A DNA stretch of 64,000 nucleotides from Botryllus schlosseri (taxonomy: Eukaryota), in contig CM119372.1 in the NCBI GenBank assembly GCA_051294905.1, forward strand, positions 10,170,001-10,234,000, read 5' to 3'. Made by a program: the position numbers and the translations under genes. Within the stretch, counting starts at the first letter, position 1. Each line of letters opens with the position of its first letter. Positions 684 through 39,556 of this stretch are shown one piece after another. The notes beneath the pieces were generated by a model that was not told where the DNA came from, did no database searches, and saw only the letters and a list, made by a program, of their open reading frames with translations.

Positions 684-12594
<11,911 letters not shown>

Positions 12595-14019
12595 TCGCGA
12601 GATTTCGTTCCGCGTCACCTTTGAGGACGCGCTAATTGACGAGGCTTCCACACGTTGTCGGGGACCTGACGGACGATTTTGATCAAAGCGAATGTCAACT
12701 GTTTCGAGGGCGGTTCGCTTAGGATAATTTTAGTACGGCGCATATTCAGAAATAGCCTGCAATCATGTGCCAAATACCGGCTTCGTTTTATTATGGAAAT
12801 GACAGCTATTCGTATTTCTGATGCCAGTATTAAGGATCAAGTTGGTCTTGTCATCAACTATAGGGTGCCGATGGCGAAGTTACGACGTAGTCTTGATGTA
12901 ATGTTGACTGGATTGCAATAGCTGCCATACCGTTACATGTATAGACGGGTGAATAAAAAATGCTTGTGCCTCTTGCAAACCTTAGGATCTCGACTATCAA
13001 AGCCATCTCAACGATATCATGTTACTACTTTGCCGAAAATCCTTTGGCCTTCTTTCACCTTGTAACGATGAGATGCATCTTATTTCGAATAGTAGGCCTA
13101 GTGTACTCGGGAATTAACTGCGTATACCGTATATCATATACTTATTTAATTTACAATTTTGTTGTTGATTCACTAACAAAATTTATTGTGTTTTTTTCGT
13201 GCTGATCTTCCCTATTCTACTTCTTCGCGTATTGTTTGGTGTGAGCGATTTGTTGCACCACATTGTGCTCGCTTTATATGTGTTTATGCACGACAATGGA
13301 AAGTGCGCTACTCGTCCTTGCTGCAAAATGCACGGCTCGGAAGTCTGTTTCAGTATATACTTCAATAAATAAGTTAACCTGACCTGCTGCGTGGCCCACT
13401 GCACTGAAGACCTGTGTTATACGAGGTGTGGGTGTTTAAGCGCTGAAGCCAGTTGGGCTGTTCTAAATGTAATAGCAGGCAAGGTCTGAAGAGTGGATGT
13501 GGAAGAGCAATACCAGGCGTGTGAGTCGACATATCGTTAGATTGGAGCAGGACTGAGCAATACGTCGATTGCGAATGTGACATCGGTGGATTTTGTAACG
13601 TTGGAAAAGTTAACGTTGTGGGTATCGGTTCACAATAGGTTTTATGTGGCAGTTAGGGGCGATTGTCTTGCGTACTGGTGTGGCTGTGTGTTTTGTGTAC
13701 TCAAAAAAGAAAATAGATGCTCCGTAATGACAAAAGTTAAAAGGAAATACGACGACAGTTTTGGGTAGTGGGGAATGAAAGACTCTGAGGTGGGGAATGA
13801 AGAAAAAAGGTTGTGAACCACTGCTCTATTCAGAATCGATATCACTCAGTTTCTCGATTTTGCCCAGTCCTGCTTATAACGTAGTCGGCATGCTTAAAAA
13901 GATCCAACATAGCTGCATTGGCAACTATTGTCAATTCATTATTGCGTCATAAAGACTCGCTTTGGAACCTCGGTCGGATAGTTTCATTTTGAAGTAAAAT
14001 AAAAGAAGGATGTCGCGAA

Positions 14020-17000
14020 ATGTCTGATGAGGATGAGCCGGCAACTCCGCCAAATGGACGGGAACGCAGTTCCATATCTGGCGAAACTGAAGAATCTAAT
14101 AGCACAAACTTAGTCCGTGAAGATGATTTCGACGATTCAAGCCTAACGACACAGGATCCGGATCAGCCCGTGAGATACCAATATTTTCACTTTCAGATCC
14201 GTTCGGCGCGTGTCGCTAATACGAATAAACGCAGCGTTGTTTCATTGTAATTTAGTTCACTGGATGTGTCTATAGCCTGTCAGTTGATTCAAACGTAGAG
14301 GTTTATCGATAAGCCTGGCCTGCGCGACCAGAGGAGTGCAGTAAATTCAATACAACGGCAGCCCCTTAACCCAAATAAACTGATATTGGCAACTGCAATC
14401 ATCTGTTGCTCAGGATGAAGAAATCGGCGTCGAATCTCTGCTGGAAACCCCTATATTTGAAACTGAAAAGGCACTTGCCGAACCACCGTCTTCTGTTGGG
14501 CAAGTGAGTAGATATCGTCTGTCTTGCAATCAGTAACATTTTTCAAACCTTCCTCGTTTCTATAGGATGAAAGCATCCCAGAAGCAGAATCGGCGGAGCT
14601 CTGCTCAGAATTGAGCTCGGAGATACTGCCTTCCCGTAAAAATTCTTTTCAGCCATCCGGTGTGCGAGTACAGTGCGGAAAGGTAAGCAATTGAGCATGG
14701 CTTAGCGAAGGGGTTTTCTTTGTATGAAACCAGAGTTTGAAACCAGTTTGGGTTGACTACACGCTGATGAAACTACGCACGCAATTTAGGCTTATCATTT
14801 ACAGATTTCTTGGGTTAGAAAAATAAAACGGAAGCGGCCGTTATACAAAAACACACGGTAAATATCAGAAGATTCCACTAACTTCTCGGTGATGTTGTTT
14901 GTGATTAATTTCTGTTAAAACTGCTTGTTTGCCAATTTTCGATCGGCATCATTACTGAAGTAATAGCAGAGGTGGTCAAAGTAGTCAAGAAAGCTACTCA
15001 AGTAGAATTAGAAGTAGCGACGAAAAAATCTACTCAGGTACGAGTAGAAGTAGGCCTACTTCTTCAATAGGCAACTCAAACTTCTTGAAGTAGAATGGAC
15101 TGACTTTGAATCTACTCAAGTAAGTAAGTAGTTTTAAAAACAGTCATAATTCGTTCGCATGGACTGTCAAAAGCTGCAAATTGAGCTATGCGGAATGTGC
15201 AGAGAGCTTGATTCGTAGGCTATTGATGCATCCCAGGAGGTATCAGTTTTCGACAGAATAATCATTCTTTTGCATCATGGGATGCAAATTTTTTATAGTA
15301 TTGATATGAAAATGCGATAATAACCCTTTGTTTACTATAGAAGACTCCATTTTAGAGAGCATCGTGGCATGGCGCCCTACCCCATATTATAATGCCCCAA
15401 GTTTAGACGGAGAGCAATACCGAGAAGTTGCATCGGATACGGTTTCAACACTTTGCGCTATTAGTATACGGAAATAACAAATATTCTGGATCGTAAAATT
15501 TATATTTAGTGCAGCTTTATTTTCGGAAAATAGCGGCATTATTACACTTGCTTTCATTCTTCAACATGTACGTTCTGCAGACAAAAGAACTGAAACTAAT
15601 TAGAACTCAAAGGATGATACTCGGTATTGAAAGTGAAATGCAAATGCCACTTCCAAAAAGCGGAAAATATATTTCATGTATTTTGTCCATAAAGTTTTAA
15701 AGGTGATCAGCTAAAACAGGTGTAACGATAAAAAGCCAGATTTTTCAGATTAGCAGGGAATGTCATGGGCTGCTAGATGACGATATGATAGGTAATTGCT
15801 AGATTGCGAAACGGTAGTTTCAAACATTATGGTGGGCCACATTTACTGTGATGAGAAATATCTGATATGGACGTCAATGCGATGTGAGCGGAACCCAGCA
15901 ATCCGCGACCTAATTTATATTCACTGATACTTTGAACTCTGATCCTCTGTCACTTATTAATAACTGTACCGGTAGCGGTTTTTTCTATGCTCTGGGAGGT
16001 ACAATCGAGGACAATTATACTGGCAAAGTTAAGTTACCTGAATGATTCGATTTCAAAGCGAGTATATCAGGCATAGGCCTATCACTCATTTAGACGTCAT
16101 GGAGTGTGGATGACGTGAAAAGTTCAAAGATGTCGGGTTGTAGGCAGGGCCGTAACTGCCGCACCCCAAATCCCCCAATTGGGGGGGAGAGCTCGAAGGG
16201 GGCCCAAAATTATTTCTTGAATTAGCATAAATTATAGAGTATTTTTTGAAAATTTATGCACCTTTTTCAAAAAATTTTTGCGCTAGGCGCGATTTCAAGT
16301 TGCCAAGTATCTTGATTTTGGGGTACTCTTCCCCCAAGAAAAAATACGCAAGATTTATAGAAATGGGCATATCGGCGGTGGCCATTACCGAGTCACGATG
16401 TACCAAGATATATATATAAAGTTTTAGGCCATGTAACATGCGACTCCGATAGAAGTGCGCCAGAACGGTCGACCGCGAGAAAACCTTGGTCGAAAAGGAC
16501 TGCCCTTATATGCTGACTGAAAACTTCTTTATAAATACAAAATACATATAGGTTTAATTAGGCGCCTAAATGACTGGCGCCGAATGTTCCTGTCTTGGCA
16601 ATCGGAACCTCACAAGACAGATACCGTCCCGCAGGCAAAAATTATATACCAGTGAAGAAATACCAATTTGAAATCGTGTTCGTCTTTTAGTTTAGTTGCC
16701 TACGTTTGGGCGATTCTATATTTTTGATATACGATATAGCAGACAGGAGGTCACGAAATAACATCATGTTACGGAGTCATATACCAACGGGCCCTACAGT
16801 TTCCATAACACTTCACTCAGCTCTACCGGTAAATCTGATTACGTGAGCATAGAGGACAAGAAATTGATAGCAATATAGCCTCCCAGAAGTTCGGTTTGTC
16901 ATCATATGAGGGGCCCAAGACCGACGTTTTGAGGGGGGCCTGACGAAGCGCTGTTACGGCCCTGGTTGTAGGCCTACCTTTTACTAGGCAGCCACGAAGA

Positions 17001-20000
17001 AAATTATGCCAGTTATACACCAAATTGAAGGTAATTTTCTACTTTTCGGCCGTGGCTCTTTATTGCAATTCCATACAATGCTGTGGGTAGATCACGACTC
17101 CACATTAATGTCAGTGCGTAGCTTTGTACTACATATATCGTCTTTCAGTACTGAATTTGGATCTTTACGATTTAAAACTCGAAATCGAATCATCGCCTTA
17201 TATGTCAACGACATTTTTGAAACCTCCTCATTGAACACCACACTGTTCGCTGATGATACTCACCTCCTCTCTTCCGCATCTTCGACGGCAGAGCTGGATG
17301 CCCTGACTGGTGACCAAATGCCCAAAGTCCATGAGTGGACGGCCCAGAACAACCTTTGCATAAACGCCTCGAAATCGCAATTGCTGACAGTCAATTCAAA
17401 AAATAACCTAACCGTTAATATCGCTGGTCAGCCCGTTTCCAACACAGATAATGCCAAATATCTCGGAGTTTTACTGGACTCGAACATGTCCTGGAAGAGT
17501 CATATTCAGTCCCTAGAAACTAAATTATCACCGAAGTGCGGCCTGTTCTACAGCCTTGGGCGCTTCATGCCAGCATGGGTTCTCCTGATACTCTTTAAAT
17601 CCTTAATCCAATCGAAGTTACATTATGGCATCCTCTGTTGGGGGGCTGCCAGTAAAACTGCACTCAAGCCACTGCAGAAACTACAGCATAAAGTGCTCCG
17701 AATCATAGCTAGGGCCCCAAAGGGGCCTGGCTGCCCATCCAATAAGTCGCTGCTGAAGAGATTCGGCGTCCTAAACATAGAAGATATGCGGAAACTAGAA
17801 ATCGCCAAGTTTATGTATCAGTTTCACTGCGGTCGTTGCCCCGAATATTTCAATGACTTCTTTACCTCTGAATCAAAAGCGCACAAGTACAACACACGCG
17901 CGTCCACGTCGTCCAAATATCATATGATCGATCGAAAAGATCATCGCTCCATCAAATATGCCGGACCTGATGTGTGGAACAGTATCCCGCCGGCCATCCG
18001 ACAGTCGACGAGCATGTCCACATTCAAGTCGAAATACAAGCAATTACTACTAAATAAATACAGTCCATCCTCAAGATTACCGGACCACGACTGACCTATC
18101 GATCTCGCTTCCCATGACATGCCGCCCTATTTCTTGTCGCTTTCTTTTTCTATACTGTATCCTTTACTTTCATTCAGTGTGCATTAGGGTTGTCCAAAAT
18201 TTGGAAAATCTTAAAAATACCCCGTGATTGTGTCTCATTCCATAGATTATTGATAAAAAATAACAATGAGCCCAAAAGCAGCTCACGGGAAAGCCGTTAA
18301 GATTTCGGCCAAAGCGTTTTAAAGTAGCTGCCCAAGAATGGGCGTGCCACCGACCATAGAACGGCGAGAAGACTAGTAATCAAATAACCACGGCTCCTGA
18401 TTGGCCAATTGGCTATGCTTCAATGATCACCACAGCAACAACTTGCTGATTATGTGCTCAAGGAGTCTGCTACCGGTGGGGATTCTGAAATCGCGTTGTT
18501 GGTAGGTTGGCAGATGATGATTTAAGATTAATTCAGGACATGTTAAGGTACGAAATACATGATGAACAATCAACAGCTGCTTCACATAAACTTCTACAGC
18601 ATGACTGCTTTGCTGTGAAGGAAACGGCGGTAGCCTACATGCCGTGTTTTCATCGAGGGAAAGCAAAGACGATTATGCAAGTAGTGAACGAATTCCCCGT
18701 TTCAGAAGGGATCCATCATCAGTGAATACAAATATAAAGCTTGACCATGACACTATACTTTGTGAGAGCTTATTGGACTCAAGTTGTAGTATATAGTTGA
18801 TATTTTGAATGCTCTAGGGATTGACTGAATCAGCCGGTTGTGCTTGGCAGTTATACTTACAGCAAATTGAATTCACATGTAAGTGTTGTCAAAGTCCTTA
18901 ATGATGCTGCAGAAAAGAGGTGTAAAGTAAGCACAATGCTGGATATCATGTCCAAACTATGCTGGATACTATGCAGTATAGTCTGTGATTATCTTTACAC
19001 CTATTTTCTGCGGGATCAATAGGGACTTTGACATACCACATTGGGCATAGCCTGTGCGAGTGTGCGTTATCATTAGGGACTTTAGCAACACTTACAAGTG
19101 AATTCAATTTACTGTAAGCATCTGATGAGTGCCAAGCATAACCCGCTGATTCAGCCGATTCCAATATCATTCAAAACGTTACCTATATATTACAGCTTGA
19201 GCCTAATAAGATCACACAAATTACGGTATCGTGTCATTGATAAGCTTTATATTTGTGTTCACTGATGATGGATCCTTTCCAAACGGGGAATTCGTTTACC
19301 GCTTGCATAAGCGCCTTTGCTTTCCCTCGGTGAAAACACGGCATGTAGGCTACAGCCGTTTCCTTCCAATAAAGCAGTCATGCTGTAGAAGTTTTTGTGA
19401 AGCAGCTGTTGATTGTTCATCATGTATTTCGTACCTTAACATGTCCTAAATTATTCTTAAATCATCATCTGCCAACCTACCAACAACTCGATTTCAGAAT
19501 CCCCACCGGTAGCAGACTCCTTGAGCACATAATCAGCAAGTTGTTGCTGTGGTGATCATTGAAGCATAGCCAATTAGCCAATCAGGAGCCGTGATTATTT
19601 GATTACTAGTCTTCTCGCCGTTCTATGGTCGGTGGCACGCCCATTCTTGGGCAGCTACTTTAAAACGCTTTGGCCGAAATCTTAACGGCGTTCCCGTGAG
19701 CTTCTTTTGGGCTCATTGTTATTTTTTATCAATAATCTATGGAATGAGACACAATCACGGGGTATTTTTAAGATTTTCCAAATTTTGGACAACCCTAGTG
19801 TGCATGCCTCCTCTTTACTACGCCTAGGCCAAGGTGGGTGTCCGATTCCATTGACAAATCCAAGTCGCTTCGACATCTTCCTGTCTATTCATTGTATCGC
19901 ATTTTTTGTGGTGTATTGAACTGATAAAATTGCTAATAAACCAATGATGATGATGATGATTGTTCCCATCCATAAGGACAATAAATGAAGCGTCCGTGCG

Positions 20001-23000
20001 CAACACTACCATTTTCAGGTCCCTCCGTGGTGTCCCGGAACGCCCCCTGTCGACAATGCCCTCGTGCTTGTACACAACCAACTGGTAAATTTGGAGAGTC
20101 GTTTCCAAAAAGATCTCCACAGCCTCGAGGCGAGATACTTCGAAGAGCTGTACGGACCGTTGCTTACGCTGCGTAATAGGTTACTGGAGGCATCGAAGGC
20201 TTTCAACACCTACGAATCGTGCGAGAGGAAGACTAGAACAAAACCGTGGGTCTAGAATCGATTCGTCGGGGACCCCGTTGTTGAGATCAAACTTTTCATA
20301 CGCGTCAGGTGTTATTTTCGGGAATGGGACGATTGTGAACATGAGGCTGCAATGTCAAGGCGACGGATCTCGGATATAGGTCTGACCGAGTGTGATCTTT
20401 TCGATTCGTGTTCTAGCGTTATTGCGGCAGAAGAGTTCGGCGAGGACACATGGTGCGCGCTGAAGCATATGTTGTGCAGGATTTCAGATGGTTCGTACAT
20501 TGTAAACAGTAACGATGTGTCGTCGATGGGATTAGGAACCGATCTTTTCGTAAAATGTAAATGCATTGTAACGATTAATCACCTGCAAGCTATATGGGCG
20601 TCTGTATGTCGGGTGAGCAGTTATACCAGTGGTTCCCAACGTGGGCGATATCGCCCCCCAGGGGGCGATTTGGCGGTCTAGGGGGGCGAAAATGACGAAG
20701 GGGGCGACAGGGGGGCGAAAATGGACAAAGGGGGCGACGGGGGGCGAAAATAGCGAAGGGGGCGATAACGCGCCAAATCGGCTGACCTTTTTTTTTTTTT
20801 AGTCAACCCACGGAAATTTAGTTACAAAAGTGTGTAAAATTAGACATCGTGCCGATTTGACCTTTTTTTTTTAGTCAACCCGCCGGTGATTACAGTTTGT
20901 ATGCCCAATTTTCGGTACACAAAATTTGGGGGGCGATGATCGCTGTTGACCTTGAAAAGGGGGCGAAAAAGGTTGGGAACCACTGAGTTATACTGTTGTT
21001 GATGATGCTTCGACAGCAATGGACATTTTACACTCGGCCAATATTATTTTAATGATTACTAAGCTGCTGACTTATAGCACGGCTCATATAGTTGTTCAAA
21101 AACTTTTGTTTCAAATTTTACTGGCTAGAACGTTTTACTGACAACCTAACGTGGAATTGTTTTAAGTTGTCTGAGAAAAACGCTACATATCAAATTTGGC
21201 TCAATTCAAATATGTAGAAGCTATTAGAATAGAGAATTGTGGATTTTTGAAAAAAAAAATTCAAATTTACCAGGAGCTCGAACATCCGCTGAAATGGTTA
21301 GGTTGCCCAAAAAACGATGTAGCCCTTGACAAATTTGGCTCAATGTGAGCCAGTGGAAGTGAAGTTATTGTTCGGATTTGAAAACAATTGTTGAAAGTGG
21401 AAAATTCTATCATTCGGCTATATGCTTGTAAACGAGAAGTGAAGCGTATTCACATGTCTTGATTTTCACATAGCTGCCGGGAATCACGATGTATTGCTTT
21501 ATGCTTGAAAATAATTTGAAAGAAGTCAATTTTATTAAAAGAAAAACTCACGCAAACATTTTGATTATAGCCATTTCACCAAAGAAACAACACAAGTACA
21601 CCAGTACCAAAAAACGAACACATACATCATTGGAAAACCTACAGATACAAATCATAGCGCAATGACATCTCTCTAATTTATAGTCTTGCTTATGCGTTAG
21701 AAGATTTAAAATCTTGGCGCAGCTTGCGAATGGTTTTCGTACTGTTTTGCACACGAGAACAGGAATAATTCACGCGTACGTTTTCCCGACAGCTCTGCAA
21801 CTGCGGTCGCGACACAGCGACTGCGTCATCCAGCCGCATAAGTTCTGGTATCACGTGTTCAAACGGTCTGCCCCGATTCTGAGCGCAATGGTGGGCAGGA
21901 ACGACGCCGAATTTCTCGGATGCATACGCGACGTCAGAGTCCGTCTGTACAACGCGAATTGGCCAGACACTTGCCAGTTCAGAACCGGAGTCAAAAGAAG
22001 GCACCCCCCCTTTATAAAGAAATGCGGGCGACCGCGAGGCCCCGCGAGATATTTGTCTTCTTGCGGGTTAGACTTTTTGCCGCAGGACGATTGCTTTGAT
22101 CCAGGTCAGAAATCTTTTCGACTGAGTTGAGATAGTTGGAGGAATTAAGGTTGTCTTATTATCCCAATACAGCGTTTTTGTCTGTAAGCGAAAGCACGTC
22201 CGACGTGGCCATGAATTGCGTTATGGATGAACCCGCGGATTGCGATGCCGAAGACAGTCCGGTGGTCGGCTTTGAGCTGGAGTTTGAACTCTACCCGAAT
22301 ACCATCGTTCAAAACTCGATCCTGCGAAAGCGGTACCTCATAGACGTGGGACCGCAGAAGGAAGATTTCACGAAAGTGAAAAAGCATAAAGACTTTAAGG
22401 GTCCGACTTGCGACATGAGCAAGGTAACCGCTTCTACCGTGTGTTAGGTAGGGTTACCATACGTCCTCTTTTAAGAGGATTTGTACTCTTTTTTGACTTT
22501 TTTGAAAGTGTCCTCGGAGGACGCCCTTTTGTCCTCTTTTTTGAGATTTTGTCCTCTTTTTTGAAAATTTAGGTCAGATTTAGAGCAAATTGCGAGTGAT
22601 ATGACGTAAATTAGCACAGAACTGACGCACCGGCGGGTATTTCGGAGTGAAAATCGGTTATTTTAGCTCTGGGCGGAAAGATGACCTTTTTTTTTCTTTT
22701 TTTAGTCATCCACCTAGCAATGCGAGAAGAAAAAGGGTATTTTGAGCTCTGAGCGGAAAATATGACCTTTTTTTTTAGTCAACCGATCACAAAGTGGGAA
22801 AAATTCACCGGTTTTTGAGAATTCTTCTCCGGTTTTCCAAGTCTCAAATTTCTGAAAAAGTGTCCTCTTTTTTGATTTCCAAAATATGGTAAGCCTAGTG
22901 TTACGACATGGGTAAAAGTAAATTGTAGTGATGATGATCCCTAAAAGGTTGAACGCGATCATTTAGAAAATGCGAACACGTACATAATGGGTCGTAATGC

Positions 23001-26000
23001 TAATTTAAGTATAGCCTACACTTTTTGAATTGCAATTTCAGTGGAGGTCGTAAATGTCTGCTCAACTACAAGTATAGCCAATAAGTAGCGATTTCTAAGT
23101 CAGGTGAAAACAAATACTTCAAATAGGAGTAGAACATAAAAAACCACACCACAAACAGGTACCATCTTTAGACATCTATTCAGCAGTTACCGTGATGATG
23201 ACGTTTTCACACGTCTCGTATGAGGATCTTACAAGTATAACCGACGGCAACTTAACCCAAAACTAATAGAAGGAGATTATTCGTGTTCAGGAACATATGA
23301 TCATATATATCTAAGCCGGCATGAATTCGAACTGTGGTATCAATTAGCGAGTCCGTGATCTCCCGCTTTCACCAATACCAATATGCCACACATATCACAT
23401 TACAATACATCAAGATCAATCGCTCCATGTCGCGCGCAAATGCATAGCATACGCGACCTCGGCAGACTATTTTCACAAATCAAAATGTTCCAATCTGCTC
23501 GAGAATCCGTATCGTAATGACACCGATTTGAGCTGATTGTGAACTTGTCATCTTTTGTTTTCTCGAGGCTGTAATACATCTTCCGATCGTCATGTTTTTC
23601 TATTAGCGTAAATCGATTACGGCTATTACGCCCATTTGGAGTTTGTTAGGAGCCATGTTTTGCAAATTCCAATTAATTCCATGTCACATTGTCAACCTTG
23701 AATAAGTATGACATCACAACCGCTAATTAACATGATCTTTGATCACTGGCGATCTTTGATCACTGGCCAGCGATGATAGGCGTGGCGGCTTCTTACTACA
23801 ATACAGTAGGAAATTTCAATCATTACATTTCGCGTACAATCGGATAACATCTCAGCGGGAGATCGCGTGCCGCTGCGCACAGTCGATTGTTGCTAATGGA
23901 TCCACTGATAATATGAATTGCTGAATTACATATTTTGTGATACGATTGTTGATATACAATGTTCTTTCCAATTCTCTACTAGTTGCTGACGATTACCCCT
24001 GACGAGTGTCAGCCGAAAATATTCGGGTTCATTTCAATATGAATATACTATTTAATTTTATATTGAAGTTCTGTACCTCCAAGAAGCTCTTCAAATTGCT
24101 GAATTGCAGACGTGCTGAGAAATAGTGGAGATACAATCCGCATTTCAAAAGGACGGCTTGTAATGAGAGTGGTTTCGACCCTAAAACCCAGCTGACTACG
24201 TCACTATTCTGAATAGCTGTGAATTTCACCAATTCATAATACCGCAATTACAATGCAACGAAAACGAATGCTACGAAAAATGGAAGGGTTATCATAGGTC
24301 CTATACTGAGATATTAGGAATATGCCGTTTGCGCGGTTTCGCAAATGAGTGTTTATTATGCGTTTCCAAGAAAGGCGGGTCTCATCACCAGCGACGGAGT
24401 GGGCGAAGAGAGCAGCGACAGCGACGAGTGTCCTCGAACGAAAAGACGTAAGAAGGGCGGAGACAGTTTTCACTACCTGCTCGATTACCAAGGACCGCGG
24501 CTCGTGGGGATAGAGGGCAGCACCGTCAGATGGAAGTGTGGCGCGAGCCGCATGCCAAAACGTACGCGTTTGTAACAACTGGGACTGGGCACGATGATTA
24601 GAATAACGCGAAACAATAACTTCACATTGCTAATATATTCGCTAAATGCATCTGAGCTTCTGTACCTCAAATGGCTAGTTCAAATACAATGGTTCGCGTA
24701 CCGACATTATTGGCTTCTTGTCACTGAGAATTAATTTATCAATGAGAATTATAGTCCACATGCCTTCATTCGCTCCAATATAAAAACATGTTACAAGACA
24801 AGGCTGCACAGTGCGCACTTTGGTGGAATAAGCGATGTTTCGGTGAAATAGTGATTGGCGTTGAAAATATGCAAACGTATCATGTTTACGTAATTAATAA
24901 GCATTCTCGCCTGGTGAGGAACCATACTTCTGGATACAGTAGGAAAACACGGAACCTTACATTTTCATATTTTAATGAAAGCTTGTGTACTCCGTCGCGG
25001 AGACGCCGGCTATCGACCGGCGCATCTGCCGGCGGAACCTCCCTATCCCGGCGAGTCGTGCGACGGAAGCCCGTCTTTCCTCGACTTTTTCGGCTGGAAT
25101 TGGGACATATACAGAAACAGAATCATGACCAACGACGCCCGTCGAATGATTCATGTCAAACCGAGAGAGGTGACCGAGATCATCACTAGGTAATCGCCAC
25201 TGATCTATTGACTATTTCTGATTTATGACCTTGGCTAATGTCTTGTTTAGGGATTACGAGGTGGGAATGTATATTCGCGAATTCGTCATACCGAGAGCGT
25301 TCGATATATACAGACGGTGTCGCCGAGATTCCACTACGGGTGCTGGTAAGAGATATATACCAGGGCTCGCCGAATCAAAATGGGTCGCGGGCCACTTTTC
25401 ATATTTCATTGCGGCCGCGGGCCGCATGAATTCAAATTCGATATAAAATAGGCAACTACGTTTTAAAACTCTACGTCAGTACAACGCTCTGTTACCTAAC
25501 ATATGCGATGGGCATTGTGACCACAAAAGAAGTAGTATTTTATTAAAGGAATACAAATACAAAAATAATTCATTATCATCGATTTCGTTTTATTTTGAAC
25601 TTTGTTCTGTGCACGATATCTGGAAACGCTTTTCGGCCACTAAGGAATCGATATTAGGACCAGTGAGTGAGTGAGATGCAATACTAGCTGAAAAACCATC
25701 TCCACGTAAAGCTTTGATCTTGGGAGAAAGCCCTACGTCAGTGGTTCTCAAACTTTTTTAGACAAAATGCTAGTAATTCCAACGGATATTTTGATGGCAT
25801 GGAAGGTTATGACTGTTGATGAGAGAATTCTATAATATGATTTCCGAACTATACACAGAGCAATAACTACACGAATTCGAGGGAAATCGCGCGAATAAAA
25901 TCTCAGATAATGACCGCAGCTCCGTCAGACGCTTTCACGCCCCAGAAGAGTTAGGGTTTGTTTGAGAACCACTACCGTACGCTGTTATCTAAGCGTATCG

Positions 26001-29000
26001 GTTGCACGCCAAGGCAATGTGCCTATTCATATCAGCTTATTCTCCCTCGATGGAAAGCTGTTGCCATCGCCAAAGCTGTTTTAGCTAGTGGCGAATAATG
26101 ATGTTGGGCACAAGAGAATAGCTTATTTTGAAACCTCAACAACGATATGTGGAAACTGTAATCAATTTCAGCATTCCAAATTGGTTTTCTTCAGGGTTGT
26201 AATGACTCGAGTCATGACTCGACTCGTGTCAGACTCGAGTCACGATTTTCTGATGACTCGACTTGACTCGAGTCATTTTCTCAAAATACGGAAATGACTC
26301 GACTCGAGTCAATGTGTGTATTGACTCGACTTGGACTCGAGTCATTGCGCATGACTCGAACCAAGTCATATGATTCGAGACTCAGACGGCCAATACCGAC
26401 ATTTCATTGTAATTTCGAAGTAAAGTAAAGTAACCACCCTATTAGGATTTCGTCTATTGATACCGGTACTTGAAAATGCGACCAGAAACCGTTAAAAGTG
26501 AGGTAAATTTGTATATTATAGATGCAAACCATTCGATATCACCAAGCAGAGTTATAAAAGTGGGTTTAACAAAACTTTAACTGGAAACTGAGCAGTCAAC
26601 ACAATGACTTGGACTCGGACTCGAGTCATAATACCATGACTCGGACTCGAACCCCTGCTCGATGACTTGGACTCGGACTTGACTCGGTGGTGAATTGGGA
26701 ATGACTCGACTTGACTCGAGTCAAAACTATAAAAGTGAGATTGACTTGTGATTGTGACTCGGAACCTTGTGACTTGGTTACAACCCTGGTTTTCTTAGCT
26801 TTCATCCGAAATCTCAAATCAAGTCGCGGGCCGCAAAATATGACCACCGGGGCTGCATGCTGGCCGCGTGTTGGTGACCCCTGCTATAGACTCTAGCTAG
26901 TCAGCGTTGGTACTCAATTCGAAATTTCATGCCGCGACTTCATATCTTGTGATACGATTGTTGATGTACACTGTACAATGTCCTTTCCAATTCTCTACTA
27001 GCTGCTGACGAGTACCCCCTTGGCCCCGGCGAGTGTCAGCCGAAAATATTCGGGTTCATTTCAATATGAATAAATACCATCCAATTGTATATTGAAGTTA
27101 CGTACCTCCCAGAAGCTCGTCGTACTTTTCTAATCAAGTACCGTATAAAGGAGGTTGGATTTACGTGCAAGTACAAAAAAGGAACTATATGCTAGGCTTA
27201 GTTTAGCCTAAAACTTGAAAACTGTTAAGTAGAAGAGGAAGTTAAAATCTGTTTGGTCGAGACCTCCCATACTTTTTGTCCTCGATCAAAGGTGGCTACT
27301 TTCAATAATATCTGGGAACATCTTCGCGTCAAGCCCAGAGTGGATACTGACGCTAAAATTGGAGCGATTTCAGTAAAATATTTGACTACCGTGATACAGC
27401 GTCAGTCGATGCCACTATTTCTCGCATAAACGTTGTATGGACATCCCAAAAGTGCTTTTTACTTTACAAAATTCAAAGTGTAAAATGTAGTCGAAGTACC
27501 ACTTGAGTTGAGGGTCGACTTACAACTAAAAAGTAAATATTTTTGGTCATGTTTGGCTTATAAGTCTGCGAAGTAGAAGGAGTGCAAAACTCGAGTAACG
27601 AGTGCAAGTAACCAAAGTCTACTTGAGTACTCCGAAAAATAATGGTACTTGCTTACTCAGCCCTCTGAACATATGCCATAAACTGCTGTTCTACCGTTTG
27701 TCACCATTGCGTATTTTACAGACTCAGGCATTCCTGTCGTAAAAACCAGCACGAAAGCAGGGGCGACGCGCGGAATACGCCCCACGTGCAAAGCGACCAA
27801 GGCCCGCCCATGCCCTCAATCATCTACGACGTCAACGTCGCAAGATATTTCGAAAACTGATTCAGGATCGAAGTCTGTCGAGTGTAAGCAGCAGGTTAAC
27901 ATCGGAAAACCGAAGCCTGTGAACCACGCGCGGAGCTACGACGACGTCGATGACGTCATGATCATACCGTCCGCGTTGCCTAAGCACCGCGCCAAAGATT
28001 CAACCGATTCCAACCACGCGGACGGTAGTCTTCAATCGTCGCGTAAACGGTATTCAGAAATAATACAAAACCTCGACTCGGTGCATCAAGGTGAATATCA
28101 GTACATAAATAACTGGCCTGTGCCTGAAGTCGAATTTTATACAATACACCAACCTAGTTTTTGCCAACAGAACAAGTTCGTGTACTATCTAAAATAGTAA
28201 ATTGAGCTCTTCGCCCCGAAATGTCATACCAGAGACGTCATATTTTGCGATGCGATTGTTGATATACAATATTATTTCCAATAATCTATTATAATAGCTG
28301 ACGGTTACCCCCGACGAGTGTGAGCCGAAAATATTAGGGTTTATTTCATTAAAAATTTGAAAAAGGCTACTATTCAATTCTATATTGAACATCTGTACCT
28401 CCAAGAAGATCTTCATATAACTTAGCGACTTATAGATGCGAATTGCGTGACTGCACGTTAGAGCTAGAGCAACTGGATAGAGTAAGCAATTTCTGGTCTC
28501 TTCATAAACAGATACTGTAATGTAGTAGCTGGCGACTCGAACCTGATCTTAAACGAAAGCTGCTATCGCAGTGATTACGAAAATATAAATTACAATATGA
28601 ACTAGAACTAGAACTAGAACACCGCCGAAATTGCCCTCAGTCAGAAATCTGCGTCATTTGCAACCATTCTGAATGCCGCGATGCGACGAGGTGCTCAATG
28701 TCTTTACAATCGGTATGCGGAACAATGCCGATTTCCGAGACAATTTTGGATGGGTTGCAGCGCCCCGAATAAATTATAATATATATTTACGGAATCGTCA
28801 TCATCATCATTGGTTTATTAGCAAATTTTATCAGTTCATTACACCACAAAAGTGCGATACAATGAAAAGATAGGAAGCTATCTAAAAAAAGCCAGAGTAG
28901 TCCCTGTACACAAAGCTGGGGATAGAACTAATGTCACCGACTATACCGTCCGATATCCGTTCTCCCATGCATCGGGATTGTATTCGAAAAGTTGCTCCTC

Positions 29001-32000
29001 TCCCGCCTGTCCTCATTCCTCGCCAAAATGTCTGTCATTTCCCCTCAACAATTTGGCTTCCGAAACAAACACCAAACCGCTCATGCCCTCCTAACAGTGG
29101 CCGAACAGTACTACGATATCTCAGAGAAGCGAAATGTGGGATGTAGCATTTTTCTCGACCTAAAAAAAGCGTTTGACTGCGTAGATCATAAAATTCTCAT
29201 CTCGAAATTGGCGCGTTACGGACTTCGGGGCCCACAACTCGAGCTCATGAAAAGTTACCTCACTGGACGCCAACAAATGGTTGCGATCTCAGACACCTTG
29301 TCCTCTCCTCACCCGGTGACCTGTGGTGTGCCCCAGGGCTCAGTACTTGGACCGGTCCTTTTCACCTTATATGTCAACGACATTTTTGAAACCTCCTCAT
29401 TGAACACCACACTGTTCGCTGATGATACTCACCTCCTCTCTTCCGCATCTTCGACGGCAGAGCTGGATGCCCTGACTGGTGACCAAATGCCCAAAGTCCA
29501 TGAGTGGACGGCCCAGAACAACCTTTGCATAAACGCCTCGAAATCGCAATTGCTGACTGTAAATTCAAAAAATAACCTAACCGTTAATATCGCTGGTCAG
29601 CCCGTTTCCAACACAGATAATGCCAAATATCTCGGAGTTTTACTGGACTCGAACATGTCCTGGAAGAGTCATATTCAGTCCCTAGAAACTAAATTATCAC
29701 CGAAGTGCGGCCTGTTCTACAGCCTTGGGCGCTTCATGCCAGCATGGGTTCTTCTGATACTCTTTAAATCCTTAATCCAATCGAAGTTACATTATGGCAT
29801 CCTCTGTTGGGGGGCTGCCAGTAAAACTGTACTCAAGCCACTGCAGAAACTACAGCATAAAGTACTCCGAATCATAGCTAGGGCCCCAAAGGGGCCTGGC
29901 TGCCCATCCAATAAGTCGCTGCTGAAGAGATTCGGCGTCCTAAACATAGAAGATATGCGGAAACTAGAAATCGCCAAGTTTATGTATCAGTTTCACTGCG
30001 GTCGTTGCCCCGAATATTTCAATGACTTCTTTACCTCTGAATCAAAAGCGCACAAGTACAACACACGCGCGTCCACGTCGTCCAAATATCATATGATCGA
30101 CCGAAAAGATCATCGCTCCATCAAATTTGCCGGACCTGATGTGTGGAACAGTATCCCGCCGGCCATCCGACAGTCGACGAGCATGTCCACATTCAAGTCG
30201 AAATACAAGCAATTACTACTAAATAAATACAGTCCATCCTCAAGATTACCGGACCACGACTGACCTATCGACTTCCCATGACATGCCGCCCTATTTCTTA
30301 TCGCATTCTTTTTCTATACTATCTTCTTTACTTTCATTCAGTGTGCATGCCTCCTCTTTACATCGCCTATGCCAAGGTGGGTGTCAGATTCCATAGACTA
30401 CTCCTTGTCGCTTCGACATCTTCCTGTCATTTCATTGTATCGCATTTCTGTGGTGTATTGAACTGATAAAATTGCTAATAAACCAATGATGATGATGATA
30501 ATGGTGTCGAAGCGACTTGGAGTAGTCTCTGGCATCAGACACCCACCTTGGCCTAGGCGGTGTGAAGAGGAGGCATGCACAGTGTGCACAGATGCATTGC
30601 ACACTGAATAAAAAGTAAAAGAAGATAGTATTGAAAAAAGCAAGTGACAAAATTGGGGTGGCATGTCATGGAAGGCGAGATCGATAGGTCAGGTCGTGGT
30701 CCGGTAATCTTGAGGATGGACTATAGTATTTATTTAGTAGTAATTGCTTGTATTTCGACTTGAATCAGCACGACAGTAGCTTTTGTATAAGTTCTGTTTT
30801 ACACAATTTTTCGCTCGGGTCGCCAGGTACAAGATTACTAATTTACAATGCGAGGCCGCCAAAAATTACTATAGTTTTATTCGGTTGACCAAACTTGCAT
30901 GCAGTCACGTGTTTCGCATCTATTCGAAGGTTAACAATATCTATAATATCAGAAAATCTCGTCAATTTCGTCGTTTGACGTTGTGACTTTTTTTTGGTGC
31001 AGCTAACTCTACGCAAAATGTGGAACGCCAAGCAAGCGGCCCAAAGCTAGGCGAGCCGTTGACTGGTTCGGCCGGCGTGCAATCCGTTTCGAACGGCCAA
31101 GCGGCCTCGGATCGCCACAATGAGTCGCGTTTGGCGCGTAACGATGCTGACAACAGCAGCAGCACCGACGATGAGAAATTGTATGATTGGGTCCTTGTTG
31201 GTTTGGTTTATATCGTTTAACGCTGCAACGAAACCGTTTCAGTGGCGGGGGCAGGCTAAAGTCCAATCCGTCGTTCGCTAACCGTATTCTGAAAAAGAAG
31301 CGGAGCAGAACTAAAGCCGGTGGTGCACTCGCCCGTCAAAGGTGCCCTCCTGTTGTTCTTCATTTTTTGAAGTGATCAAGTACTCTTTTCCTATTTGCGC
31401 AACTTACTCAAGTGGTTATTTTTTTCGACTACTTTCACTCTATTTGGACAGTTTTTTGGGTTAATTTACTTCGGATTTTTGAACAAAGTCGTTTTTCATA
31501 AGTTTACATCACTTTATGAGTGAAATCGTCGTGACAACTACGGGAAACAGCCCCCGCATCACGGTAGCTGAATATAACCTTTAAGATTCTACCTGTTGGC
31601 GGTGTCATTAATCGTTTTGCGTTAGTTGCGAGGACGCATCTTGATATTTCGAATGGTGCCATGCCACCTCCGATTAACAGCTAGGGCGTCGATCGTAAAG
31701 TTTGGTGATCCGGGAGAATGCTAATCATGTGATTAAAAACTTCTAATCGAGACGCATTTTAGGCGGAGATAATCAAGTTAGCTGATCCGGGAGAATGCTA
31801 ATCGTGTGAATAAAAACTGGTAATCGCGACAAACGTTGTAAAAGGTTACGCGCGATGATTAGTCAAGGTGTCCCGAGTTTTCAATCAAGTGGTGTTATTT
31901 GTTGCATCATAATGCGAAAAGCTATAGGCTGTCACTCTGTCAGTAGTCACGCGAAATGAAAGTCGTGTGTAATCAGTAAGGTACAGTGAAGAAACGGATT

Positions 32001-33316
32001 ATTGAATATTGATATCCCTCTGCCATGGTGGGTACATAATTCGTTGATTGTCTAGTAAAGCCATCACCCTGGAGACCTTCGTCACGGTCATTATCGGAAA
32101 TAACTCCGCGAAGGAATGGTACGCAGTCGTCGCAGTGTACGCAGTTTTTTTTATAGATGACTATAAATTATTCCGGCTTGTTGAGTCATGAGATTAAAAC
32201 TAACTTTATGCGCTGCGATCAACCGGTTTCCTTAGTCCTGGGTTGTTAAATCCTGATGAGCGCGATAATCGACTTTACCGATAATCCAACTTCTGATCTG
32301 CGCCTTAAAAGTATGCGACCACTACTTACTACTATCGATAATACTTGCTTGGATAGGCTACAAGTCAAACCAGGGGCCTATACGAAAACCTAATTTAGGG
32401 TTATCGTAGCCCATTCAGACCATTCGATTTCTTCTTCCGCTTGAGGTAGGTTAGGCATTTATTGGAAATTGACATTTGTACTCGAAATTGAGTGGAAATA
32501 TGAATGGTGAGTGAGTACTGACGACAGATTCCGATGTTCCGCTCCATCTGTGACGTCACTTGGTTGTTGAGAGTTCTCGCCTCTTCGAATCTCCATCCCT
32601 GTGTCAGCATTTATTGGCTATCATTCCTACAACGATCATCGCAATTCTCAGGGAGAAGGGAAGCGGAAAAGTCCGCGCAAACGCGTCTAAGTCGAGCTGC
32701 TCTCACGATCGGAGAAAGATCGCTTTCAAGCGCAGTTCTCCTTGCCCGAGCGATCGCGAGGCCGTTCTTGATGGTAGTGATGCGAAGAGCTCTTCTGGAT
32801 CATCTGACGGGCCCAGAAAACATTCACGAGTGTCCGGTAACTGACTTAAATTGGGAAAATTTTGATTTATGTTAAGTATCAATCGTTACGCTTATAAATC
32901 GGATGTCTAATTGATGCGTCGCTTATGAAAGTCGTGTTTTCTATGTAAAATTTGATGCAACATGAAACTAATTTGCGAGGTAGAGATTGTGGTCTGACTC
33001 CGTGGGTGTCTTTCGTAAATAAGTTATATTTCTTGCTCAGGGGCTGCGACGCCATCTACATCCGACGAAGAGACTTTTCCCGATGAATTTGATCCGCTGG
33101 TTTATACAAAACCGGCATGTTCCCTGGGTTTAGAGGAAGAGATGGGTATATTTTTTATGCGCATTCTTGAATTTCTGTTGACGCTTTCTACTGTTTTCCT
33201 CGATAGAGCAAGAAACCCACGACGATCGCAATCAAGACGATATGGAAAATATATATTCGAATTCCGACAGCGAAGCTCCGGTAGAACCAGATTATGAGTC
33301 TTGCAAACAGCAGTAG
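14020..33316 (+). CDS. Divergent, enlarged nucleosome assembly protein 1 (NAP1)-family histone chaperone
   Basis: Phase-consistent exons 20019-20245, 20309-20490, 21793-22104, 22173-22423, 24375-24561, 24982-25189, 25251-25345, 27722-28090, 31003-31180, 31243-31341, 32652-32836, 33041-33145, 33207-33316 (2508 nt, 835 aa plus stop). NAP motifs occur in canonical order: LESRFQKDLHSLEARYFEELYGPLLTLR; KFWYHVFKR..ILSAMV..NDAEFLGCIRDVRV; FELEFELYPN..VQNSILRKRY; DYQGPRLVGIEGSTVRWK; SFLDFF; DYEVGMYIREFVIPRAFDIY; C-terminal CKQQ. Acidic N-terminal exons 14020-14169, 14414-14503, 14566-14682 and 14805-14857 splice in frame with each other. Their link to 20019 is unresolved (phase 2 to phase 0, so an exon is missing from the model). 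Confidence 0.85.
14968..15310 (+). mobile_element. Dispersed repeat / hAT-like MITE end (CAGAGGTGGTCAAAGTAGTC family)
   Basis: About 300 bp closely similar to 48822-49170 and, reverse-complemented, to about 37060-37317. Contains tactcaagta/aagtag subterminal repeats. Confidence 0.7.
16145..16964. mobile_element. hAT-type MITE (CAGGGCCGTAAC TIR)
   Basis: TIRs cagggccgtaac...gttacggccctg; perfect 8-bp TSD gttgtagg (16137-16144, 16965-16972). Confidence 0.9.
17196..19960 (+). mobile_element. 5'-truncated CR1/L2-group non-LTR retrotransposon (RT C-terminal half plus 3' UTR), interrupted by a fold-back hAT element
   Basis: Encodes LYVND...LFADDT...KYLGV..LD and HKYNTR motifs up to the stop at 18094. 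Near-identical to 29365-30500. The 3' UTR resumes at 19798 and ends in aataaacca(atg)n. Confidence 0.92.
18185..19797. mobile_element. 1.6-kb non-autonomous fold-back element with hAT-type ends
   Basis: Termini TAGGGTTGTCC...GGACAACCCTA with an 8-bp TSD gtgtgcat (18177-18184, 19798-19805). The inverted arms extend almost to the centre at about 18960. No transposase ORF. Confidence 0.93.
20627..20985. mobile_element. hAT (Charlie-like) MITE with GGGGGCGA subterminal repeats
   Basis: TIRs cagtggttcccaac...gttgggaaccactg; perfect TSD agttatac. Confidence 0.92.
22449..22897. mobile_element. hAT-type MITE, TAGGGTTACCATA family
   Basis: TIRs tagggttaccata...tatggtaagccta; TSD gtgttagg/gtgttacg; gtcctc subterminal repeats. 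Reverse-orientation relative of 34052-34396. Confidence 0.88.
23936..24100. repeat. Dispersed repeat of about 170 bp (possibly the body of a SINE)
   Basis: The core gatacgattgttgat...gctgacga...cgagtgtcagccgaaaatattcgggttcatttcaatatgaata...tgtacctccaagaag recurs at about 26950-27115 and 28250-28410, and inverted at about 7140-7220. Confidence 0.7.
25739..25974. mobile_element. Small nested hAT MITE
   Basis: TIRs cagtggttctcaaac...gtttgagaaccacta; degenerate TSD ccctacgt/ccgtacgc. Confidence 0.72.
26192..26788. mobile_element. hAT-type MITE with GACTCGAGTC subterminal arrays
   Basis: TIRs cagggttgtaa...ttacaaccctg; perfect TSD gttttctt. Confidence 0.93.
28798..30764 (-). mobile_element. Short, more diverged minus-strand copy of the same LINE 3' end, split into 28798-28877 and 30504-30764 by a plus-strand insertion
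   Basis: 30504-30764 is the reverse complement of the ORF end plus proximal 3' UTR, up to gcttcgacac. 28798-28877 is the reverse complement of the immediately following distal 3' UTR and (atg)n tail. Confidence 0.85.
28878..30503 (+). mobile_element. 5'-truncated CR1/L2-group LINE with a nearly complete RT domain (ORF 28992-30263)
   Basis: Motifs KARVVPVHKAGD..DY/RPISVL (frameshift near 28943), QQFGFR, FLDLKKAFD, GVPQGSVLGP.LF.LYVND and FADDT. The 3' UTR ends in aataaacca(atg)n. No endonuclease domain is present. Confidence 0.95.
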
Positions 33317-39400: not shown

Positions 39401-39556
39401 TGCACAATTCCACCCAGGGTTAATAACTGCCGACGTTTCCGTTCCGTAATGTGCACTCTTTCCATGTTTTCCTAGATCAACCACAACTATAAATTAACCT
39501 CGGCTCTGCGCAGTAGCATCCCCTGATTTTTCCGACCGGCGACTTATCTCCGAGCG

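What the first reader, a model, noticed from the sequence alone, without database searches (positions are those of the whole stretch)
14020..33316. Giant, heavily remodelled NAP1 paralogue (835 aa minimum, about 970 aa or more with the N-terminal exons)
Seen: all NAP-fold motifs are present in order but separated by large insertions, several of them Cys-containing (exons 20309-20490, 21950-22260, 24375-24470). Established: canonical NAP1 is about 350-400 aa with short loops. Inference: this is a fast-evolving, lineage-specific histone chaperone. Divergent NAP paralogues are often germline/testis-restricted in other animals. The six-frame ORF track shows only fragments, so automated annotation could easily miss or split it.
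Basis: partly seen in the sequence, partly recalled or inferred. Interest (0 to 1): 0.75.

Follow-up and report, generated by a model that had tools for sequence, protein, structure and literature searches.

The report
Sea-squirt giant NAP1 lacking acidic surfaces
A sea squirt carries a real, spliced extra copy of the histone-handling gene NAP1 that encodes a protein more than twice the usual size; it keeps the pairing helix and lipid-tag tail but has lost most of the acidic surfaces used to hold histones, so it probably does a different job.

Summary
Confirmed, with corrections. The locus is one single-copy, 16-exon gene of 954 aa, not about 970+. Spliced contigs of run X5 fit a join of 14682 directly to 20019, so there is no missing exon and 14805-14857 is not in that transcript. 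An orthologue exists in Styela clava (LOC120343036, 'uncharacterized', 1080 aa, Pfam NAP 81.8 bits) and in one unnamed relative. They are colinear and share the C-terminal CKQQ prenylation motif of canonical NAP1.

New here: all three orthologues keep the dimerisation helix (homodimer score 0.61 vs best control 0.00, possibly from memory). All three have lost the acidic histone-binding features. Core net charge is 0/+16/+16 against -18 to -35 in 25 canonical NAP1s. The tail after the last core helix is basic, and the NLS hairpin motif is gone. Only the first insertion has conserved cysteines. None of 11 introns of the genome's canonical NAP1 is shared.

Expression differs between runs, but the tissue is unknown and germline restriction is untested. 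Best reading: a NAP1 duplicate turned into a dimeric scaffold or regulator rather than a standard H2A-H2B chaperone. It is a new variant of a known kind.

The parts
14020..14169 (+). Exon 1 from ATG (aa 1-50), acidic disordered N-terminus; transcript seen from 14014
14414..14503 (+). Exon 2 (aa 51-80)
   Evidence: contig length arithmetic
14566..14682 (+). Exon 3 (aa 81-119); splices directly to 20019
14805..14857 (+).
16988..18094 (+). Truncated LINE (RVT_1) copy in intron 3; 98% identical over 992 nt to the copy at 28932-30263
20019..20245 (+). Exon 4 of model (aa 120-194): NAP dimerisation helix alpha2, 38/54 identical to both relatives
20309..20490 (+). Exon 5 (aa 195-255): replaced accessory domain, helical hairpin with invariant C223, C229, C251
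   Evidence: inclusion inferred from the 181-letter gap in X5 contig 10
21793..22104 (+). Exon 6 (aa 256-359): C266, H271, alpha4-alpha6 with neutralised acidic strip (P283, A287, R291, A294), start of insertion 2
22173..22423 (+). Exon 7 (aa 360-443): end of insertion 2, beta2-beta3 strands, start of insertion 3
24375..24561 (+). Exon 8 (aa 444-505): basic insertion 3, beta4 segment; second AG 4 nt upstream of the acceptor
24982..25189 (+). Exon 9 (aa 506-574): remodelled beta-hairpin (canonical lysine-run NLS lost), conserved aromatic block, loop before alpha8
25251..25345 (+). Exon 10 (aa 575-606): helix alpha8 followed by basic, not acidic, residues
27722..28090 (+). Exon 11 (aa 607-729): disordered tail with conserved island and predicted helix
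28932..30263 (+). LINE (RVT_1, 119 bits) copy in intron 11
31003..31180 (+). Exon 12 (aa 730-788), tail
   Evidence: contig length and bin depth
31243..31341 (+). Exon 13 (aa 789-821), basic tail segment
32652..32836 (+). Exon 14 (aa 822-883), tail with a conserved Ser-Pro site and C853
33041..33145 (+). Exon 15 (aa 884-918), tail with a conserved Thr-Pro site
33207..33316 (+). Exon 16 (aa 919-954 + stop): acidic end and C-terminal CKQQ CaaX motif; 3' UTR seen to about 33362

Best explanation
One intact, transcribed, single-copy gene of an ascidian encodes a 954-aa NAP1 duplicate (shown). It arose before this species split from Styela (shown by orthologues). It possibly came through an intronless copy that later gained 15 new introns and large insertions (inferred). 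It went through a burst of change and has since been conserved in its core. It still forms the antiparallel alpha2 dimer (predicted). A Cys/His-bearing helical hairpin replaces the accessory domain and packs on the partner's helix (predicted; metal binding inferred only). It probably stays farnesylated at CKQQ (inferred from NAP1L1). The acidic strip, the acidic stretch after alpha8 and the net negative core that hold H2A-H2B in canonical NAP1 are gone (shown by sequence), as is the hairpin NLS motif. Most likely it is a NAP-fold scaffold or regulator expressed in a subset of tissues or stages. It dimerises with itself and perhaps with canonical NAP1, and uses its new basic loops and long tail for other partners, with weak or no standard H2A-H2B chaperoning (inferred).
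For: Spliced contigs. Orthologues and colinearity: 35.5% over 870 columns, E 3e-132; 9 of 9 matches in the genome lie in this locus, in order. NAP1 type: best PDB sequence hit human NAP1L1 and no SET hit among 8; core identity 55/177 to own NAP1 vs 35/162 to own SET; CKQQ in all three orthologues, in own NAP1 and in 27 of 33 canonical ORFs. Dimer: score 0.61, best of 3 controls 0.00, runs agree in at least 50% of contacts, pLDDT at least 56; interface residues 158-211 plus 270-293. The mark was reached by 21 of 30 microbial and 17 of 29 eukaryotic solved homodimers and 0 of 23 and 0 of 30 monomers; the pass may be from memory of solved NAP dimers. Charge: core span 0/+16/+16 vs -18 to -35 (n=25); 25 residues after alpha8 +4/+2/+2 vs -12 to -19; most acidic 25-mer -11/-7/-8 vs -14 to -24. 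C. elegans D125 and E129 columns are acidic in 23/25 and 25/25 canonical rows but P/P/P and A/G/G in the giants. Introns 0 of 11 shared. Depth about 23-31 in X5 against 0 over bin 21704-22370 in bulk RNA run X23.
Against: No binding was measured. SET, a working histone chaperone, also has P and A at the D125 and E129 columns, so those two changes alone are not decisive. The E132 column is Q in 23 of 25 canonical rows and is uninformative. 17-20 of 46 conserved acidic columns stay acidic in the giants (SET keeps 12). The window protein has an acidic N-terminus and end (net -19 overall), though the Styela N-terminus is basic. NAPs bind histones by diverse surfaces (PMC9128123). The full NAP fold (Z 16.7, 220 aligned, rmsd 4.0) appears only when canonical rows are in the alignment. 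With giant-only rows the beta-sheet did not form. The tree does not reject a SET origin (p-AU 0.117). Pairing with canonical NAP1 was not tested.
Confidence: 0.5

Rival explanations
1. It is still a histone or sperm-protein chaperone, specialised for germ cells or stem cells like Drosophila milkah/hanabi, tNAP and CG3708. It would bind basic clients through the remaining acidic residues and disordered acidic patches.
For: NAP duplicates are repeatedly testis-enriched in Drosophila (PMC6307840, PMC10520872, passages). Expression here is uneven between runs. 17-20 of 46 acidic columns are kept, and the window protein has acidic ends. Acidic disordered regions enhance histone binding (PMC10542154, passages).
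Against: The acidic N-terminus is not conserved (basic in both relatives; 20/94 identical). The conserved core is neutral to basic and no orthologue has a canonical-strength acidic tract. Tissue is unknown.
Confidence: 0.35
2. The gene descends from the SET/TSPY branch of the family and only resembles NAP1.
For: It shares P and A/G/S with SET in the alpha5 segment. The AU test does not reject giant+SET (p 0.117). The genome has a second SET-like gene on C6, so SET also duplicated.
Against: It has NAP1-specific parts absent from SET: an accessory-domain region, the segment before beta4, a NAP1-type alpha8 and terminal CKQQ. Identity 31% to NAP1 vs 22% to SET. The free tree puts it on the NAP1 side of a 100/100 split, although on a long branch.
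Confidence: 0.07
3. The locus is a decaying pseudogene, or two or three separate genes or fragments joined by the reader.
For: Two contigs rather than one cover the transcript, and the 22423/24375 joint itself was not displayed. The unnamed relative is split by a frameshift near the same place. Coverage in X23 is near zero.
Against: The 954-codon frame is open with canonical splice sites. A single 1080-aa RefSeq protein is colinear across all parts including that joint and the tail. Core blocks are 55-79% identical. 4 of the 6 displayed exonic variants are synonymous.
Confidence: 0.04

Closest known systems
Styela clava LOC120343036 (XP_039268037, 'uncharacterized protein', 1080 aa)
   Same: Orthologue: same insertions at the same places, same four insertion-1 cysteines, same tail islands, same CKQQ end; 110/177 core identity.
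   Different: Basic N-terminus instead of acidic, longer tail. It is annotated but unnamed; 0 papers hold its identifiers.
Canonical NAP1 / NAP1L1 (human 11BC, C. elegans 6K00, yeast 2AYU; this genome's own 414-aa gene on C10)
   Same: NAP domain blocks in order, alpha2 dimerisation helix, terminal CKQQ. NAP1L1 is farnesylated (PMC1847700, passages).
   Different: 2.3 times longer; core span 466 vs 279 aa; core charge 0 vs -29; no acidic stretch after alpha8; hairpin lysine-run motif (24 of 25 canonical rows) absent; accessory domain replaced; 0 of 11 introns shared.
Drosophila milkah/hanabi (tNAP), CG3708, nap-1-1B
   Same: Lineage-specific NAP duplicates with uneven expression (PMC6307840, PMC10520872; passages).
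   Different: Independent origin (inferred). Those are shown to be testis-biased; here the tissue is unknown. I did not compare their sequences or charges.
Mammalian NAP1L2, NAP1L3, NAP1L5
   Same: NAP1-derived paralogues that lost the parental introns; NAP1L5 is truncated (PMC1796624, passages).
   Different: Those are single-exon and eutherian. This gene has 15 introns, none at the parental positions.
SET/TAF-Ibeta, TSPY, Vps75, Ccp1
   Same: NAP fold (Z 9-13 to the model).
   Different: Lower sequence and structure scores than NAP1 (Z 13.6-16.7). The genome's own SET core stays acidic (-16 on shared columns vs +2 to +4).

Membership tests
NAP domain family (Pfam PF00956) | Profile match above the curated cut-off | tested here: met
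   Orthologues score 81.8, 52.1 and 32.8 bits vs cut-off 28.6. The window protein could be scanned against Pfam only exon by exon (4 ordered sub-threshold hits); home-made HMM 43.6 bits vs 4.4 shuffled.
NAP domain family (Pfam PF00956) | Long dimerisation helix plus earmuff domain with antiparallel beta-sheet | tested here: inconclusive
   The model of the orthologue with canonical rows gives the fold (Z 16.7, rmsd 4.0, 220 aligned). Without canonical rows the helices form but the sheet does not.
NAP domain family (Pfam PF00956) | Antiparallel homodimer through alpha2 | tested here: met
   Prediction only, on the Styela orthologue: 0.61 vs best control 0.00; contacts 164-204, 185-185; may be from memory of solved NAP dimers.
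NAP1 subfamily (vs SET/TSPY/Vps75) | C-terminal CaaX motif CKQQ | tested here: met
   All three orthologues, own NAP1, human NAP1L1 and 27 of 33 canonical ORFs.
NAP1 subfamily (vs SET/TSPY/Vps75) | Groups with NAP1 in a tree | tested here: inconclusive
   NAP1 side in the free tree, on a very long branch; giant+SET not rejected, p 0.117; giant+own NAP1 not rejected, p 0.107.
NAP1 subfamily (vs SET/TSPY/Vps75) | Basic beta-hairpin NLS motif | tested here: not met
   The lysine-run motif is in 24 of 25 canonical rows and absent in all three giants; the segment is 6/33 identical between window and Styela. Other basic stretches exist in insertion 3 and the tail.
Canonical NAP1 H2A-H2B chaperone | Acidic concave surface and acidic strip on alpha4-alpha6 | tested here: not met
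   By sequence: shared-column charge +2/+2/+4 vs -8 to -15; D125 and E129 columns non-acidic. No surface-potential map was available.
Canonical NAP1 H2A-H2B chaperone | Acidic C-terminal domain directly after alpha8 | tested here: not met
   +4/+2/+2 vs -12 to -19 in 25 canonical rows. A weaker acidic patch lies about 300 residues later in the window protein.
Canonical NAP1 H2A-H2B chaperone | Binds histones and promotes nucleosome assembly | not testable with these tools
   Needs biochemistry.
Germline-restricted NAP paralogues (hanabi/tNAP, TSPY type) | Testis- or germline-biased expression | not testable with these tools
   Runs are coded without tissue. Of 4 runs laid, X5 has spliced contigs, X23 near-zero depth, X21 a few 3' reads, and X1 looks like DNA.
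NAP1 retrogenes (NAP1L2/3/5 type) | Loss of the parental introns | tested here: met
   0 of 11 own-NAP1 introns match in column and phase. Three lie in well-aligned blocks that are uninterrupted here; one of these is present in 6 of 6 other genomic NAP1 loci examined.
NAP1 retrogenes (NAP1L2/3/5 type) | Single coding exon | tested here: not met
   15 introns. A retro-origin is therefore only a possible history; intron loss and gain after DNA duplication fits too.

The most novel reading that the evidence does not exclude
A charge-inverted NAP1 pseudo-chaperone: a farnesylated dimer with a zinc-bound helical hairpin in place of the accessory domain. It binds DNA, RNA or acidic proteins instead of histones and controls canonical NAP1 by heterodimerising through the conserved alpha2 helix. 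It may also make a truncated, dimerisation-only isoform through a 4-nt alternative acceptor at exon 8.
Probability: 0.2. Interest if true: 0.72.

Novelty: new variant of a known kind. Interest (0 to 1): 0.45.

Why it matters
NAP1 proteins are defined by acidity. An animal paralogue that has kept the dimer and the lipid-tag tail across ascidian genera, but neutralised or reversed the histone-binding charge, is a natural experiment on what the NAP fold does apart from holding histones. It also bears on why the CKQQ farnesylation motif is so conserved. The gene sits unnamed in RefSeq and is missed by exon-wise Pfam scans, in an animal with bulk and single-cell RNA data, so its expression and function are directly testable. 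Divergent NAP paralogues are already known in flies and mammals, which caps the surprise.

Tried and rejected
Missing exon between 14857 and 20019: three candidate exons and an alternative acceptor at 19991 were listed. All are excluded by the X5 contig arithmetic.

Homologue searches: exon 6 against longer proteins found 0 of 31 candidates. The Styela core found 1 of 5040 (itself, 594-1890 aa) and 2 of 5594 (30-593 aa). The representatives search with exon 6 gave 5 hits, of which 3 are unrelated repeat proteins and were dropped (P0002, P0004, P0005). Exon 9 in metagenome contigs gave 0 of 593. These blanks do not prove absence in other tunicates.

Further copies in the genome: none (two weak hits at E 0.05 and 0.4 not pursued).

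ESM Atlas: core nearest to NAP clusters at 0.88-0.89, a lead only; insertion 1 gave no usable hit. The giant-only model had no match with Z of 8 or more among 48,161 chains, and no NAP chain among the 50 rows shown (best Z 7.5, unrelated). This shows neither a new fold nor a different one.

One search listed no holder on record as RNA. The joint table was crowded by repeats (15 of 399 joints shown), so junctions come from contig pieces and arithmetic. Variants: only 40 of 1544 rows were shown, 6 of them exonic. The tail-versus-core difference in contig mismatches (8/368 vs 9/1133, p 0.04) is weak. dN/dS was not computed, since no orthologous coding DNA was at hand.

Alignments A1 and A5 were not used; A1 misplaced several fragments. 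The SET tail was misread; only its core columns were used.

Literature: 0 papers for the Styela identifiers and 0 for Botryllus+NAP1+germline (the genus was my guess from recall). The 4 and 2 listings for the ascidian and tunicate queries did not concern this gene by title or abstract start. Most subscription papers and bioRxiv supplements were not searchable, so a mention in ascidian expression tables may exist. Earlier scan findings: none.


Full report
1. Observation. I rebuilt the gene from the sequence. Adding exons at 14020-14169, 14414-14503 and 14566-14682 gives 954 aa. All 15 introns are GT..AG, and the other five frames carry 19-52 stops. Exons are 53% GC against 41% for introns, and no exon base lies in a window-internal repeat, whereas 6506 of 16432 intron bases do. 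Pfam NAP hit 4 of 11 exon ORFs in profile order, each under the cut-off. A home-made profile of 26 canonical NAP1s scored the spliced model 43.6 bits against a best of 4.4 in 200 shuffles.

2. Transcript. Of four runs laid, X5 holds two spliced contigs. Contig 10 (1280 letters, depth 23) shows pieces on exons 20019, 21793 and 22173. Its gaps fit exon 20309-20490, and it has 363 letters upstream, which equals exons 1-3 from 14014. Contig 11 (1585 letters, depth 31) shows pieces on 24375, 24982 and 27722, and the rest fits the remaining exons plus 46 letters of UTR. Both lengths are reproduced exactly, and five of seven bin depths checked agree within 0.15. The other two are higher than predicted (9.85 vs 7.2, in a bin with repeat contigs; 19 vs 17.7). 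So there is no missing exon, and 14805-14857 is not in this transcript; a minor form cannot be excluded. Several junctions are inferred from this arithmetic rather than displayed, and the 22423/24375 joint falls between the two contigs. X1 contigs run through introns and look like DNA. Bulk RNA run X23 (6% read) has zero depth over 21704-22370 and under 1 in the other low-repeat exon bins. Single-cell run X21 has about 1.2-fold depth at the 3' end, on the strand expected for a sense transcript in such a library (my inference). Expression is therefore uneven, but the tissues are unknown.

3. Relatives. A filter-free search with exon 6 found P0003, which is Styela clava XP_039268037 ('uncharacterized', 1080 aa; Ascidiacea, Stolidobranchia, Styelidae). 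It also found P0001, which with P0014 forms two halves on Logan contigs of the same length (3523 nt, presumably one contig) from an unnamed relative. P0003 passes Pfam NAP at 81.8 bits. It aligns to the model at 35.5% over 870 columns and maps to this locus alone, in exon order, tail included (9 of 9 matches). No other orthologue appeared among 5040 and 5594 candidates. The host is an ascidian by inference from this closest named relative. The genome also holds a canonical 414-aa NAP1 (C10), SET (C16) and a SET-like gene (C6).

4. Anatomy. There is a 127-aa unconserved N-terminus, acidic here and basic in the relatives. The dimerisation helix is 38/54 identical to both relatives. A replaced accessory region has a second half that is 22/49 identical and holds invariant C223, C229, C251 and C266, next to invariant H271. 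In a pairwise alignment H263 faces a Cys in the relatives. The NAP core blocks are split by insertions of about 65 and 30 residues plus smaller ones. The hairpin is remodelled, then come helix alpha8 and a 355-aa mostly disordered tail with conserved islands and two conserved S/T-P sites. The tail ends in CKQQ, like this genome's NAP1, human NAP1L1 and 27 of 33 canonical ORFs. NAP1L1 is farnesylated (PMC1847700, passages). This end ties the tail to a NAP1 ancestry and to the same gene.

5. Structure (on the Styela orthologue; the spliced window protein itself was not folded). With 26 canonical rows in the alignment, AlphaFold2 gave confident core blocks (mean pLDDT 49.9 overall, insertions mostly under 50). 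The model matched C. elegans NAP1 best (Z 16.7, rmsd 4.0, 220 aligned) and SET at 12.9; this is partly circular. With giant-only rows, alpha2, the insertion hairpin (262-305, pLDDT 70-81) and alpha8 formed but the beta-sheet did not. A homodimer of residues 158-657, folded without the alignment, scored 0.61 against a best control of 0.00. The runs agree in at least 50% of contacts and pLDDT is at least 56. The interface is the antiparallel alpha2 plus the insertion helices 270-293. The mark was reached by 21 of 30 microbial and 17 of 29 eukaryotic solved homodimers and by 0 of 23 and 0 of 30 monomers. Solved NAP dimers exist, so the pass may be from memory.

6. Loss of the acidic surfaces. NAP1 binds H2A-H2B electrostatically on an acidic concave surface (PMC13255070, passages). 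In C. elegans, D125, E129, E132, D295 and D296 matter by mutation (PMC9128123, parts 1-2 of 4 read; numbering checked). In 25 canonical NAP1s the core span has net charge -18 to -35; in the three giants it is 0, +16, +16. On 177 shared columns it is -8 to -15 against +2, +2, +4. The 25 residues after alpha8 are -12 to -19 against +4, +2, +2. The D125 and E129 columns are acidic in 23 and 25 of 25 canonical rows and P/P/P and A/G/G here. Conserved hydrophobic columns are mostly kept (43-44 of 53), conserved acidic ones less so (17-20 of 46), conserved basic ones 7 of 13. Against this: SET has the same two substitutions and keeps only 12 of the 46, though its core is -16. E132 is Q in 23 of 25 canonical rows. 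This genome's own NAP1 is itself non-acidic at the D295/D296 offsets. The window protein keeps acidic ends (net -19; Styela +1), and acidic disordered tails aid histone binding (PMC10542154, passages).

7. History. On 177 core columns and 30 rows, the giants form a 100/100 clade on a stem of 3.05 on the NAP1 side. Neither giant+SET (p 0.117) nor giant+own NAP1 (p 0.107) is rejected, so the NAP1 origin rests on motifs more than on the tree. Fifteen of the 39 metagenome loci were left out of the tree as partial, genomic or redundant. None of 11 introns of the genome's NAP1 matches any of the 15 here. One of those parental introns is seen in 6 of 6 other genomic NAP1 loci examined. Retroposition followed by intron gain fits, as for mammalian NAP1L2/3/5 (PMC1796624, passages), but intron turnover after a DNA duplication fits too.

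8. Mechanism. Shown: one expressed gene, conserved orthologues, NAP1-type domain, CaaX end, loss of core acidity and of the hairpin NLS motif. Predicted: homodimer with the new hairpin over the partner's helix. Inferred: farnesylation, metal binding, weak canonical chaperoning, and a role as dimeric scaffold or NAP1 regulator (0.5). The main rival is a specialised germline chaperone as in Drosophila (0.35; PMC6307840 and PMC10520872, passages). Heterodimers among mammalian NAP1 paralogues are recalled, not supported by a call (one search listed one paper and I did not check it for this point).

9. Novelty. It is a new variant of a known kind. I found no paper on this gene (subscription papers and bioRxiv supplements not seen). 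PMC9358863 and PMC6060140 (passages) added nothing beyond a reference title on plant NAP1 farnesylation. Interest 0.45.

Noticed in passing
window 24368-24375; P0001/P0014: Two AGs 4 nt apart at the exon 8 acceptor. X5 contig 11 ends exactly where the spliced and genomic forms diverge. Use of the upstream AG would give a 469-aa truncated protein that keeps the dimer helix. The unnamed relative's two halves are split by a frameshift within a few codons of the same junction. Could be alternative splicing, unspliced reads or assembly error.
   Followed up: partly
window 39527-40996 (+): Single-ORF, apparently intronless G3BP-like gene (NTF2 103 bits + RRM 63 bits + RG-rich end, about 480 aa) in an otherwise intron-rich region.
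   Followed up: partly
window about 900-12594 (+): Multi-exon ABI-like gene (proline-rich, C-terminal SH3; the name ABI is from recall). Its polyA-type signal near 13365 leaves under 650 bp before the NAP paralogue's transcript.
   Followed up: partly
window 43724-47241 (+): NCU-G1/GLMP lysosomal membrane protein exons.
   Followed up: no
window 16988-18094 and 28932-30263: Two copies of the same LINE, 98% identical over 992 nt, in two introns of this one gene; the second has a 443-codon open frame with RVT_1.
   Followed up: partly
L011 (G000:C6 about 26.760-26.765 Mb): A second, divergent SET-like gene (68/139 core identity to the C16 SET; long branch 1.7), so both NAP branches duplicated in this genome. 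Only partly reconstructed.
   Followed up: partly
window 14010-14027: An out-of-frame upstream ATG 10 nt before the start codon opens a 5-codon frame overlapping it; the X5 contig begins at 14014, so its presence in the mRNA is unknown.
   Followed up: no
P0003 residue 398: Styela isoforms X1 and X2 differ by one residue here, suggesting a tandem acceptor and an intron near the place of the window's 22104/22173 intron.
   Followed up: no
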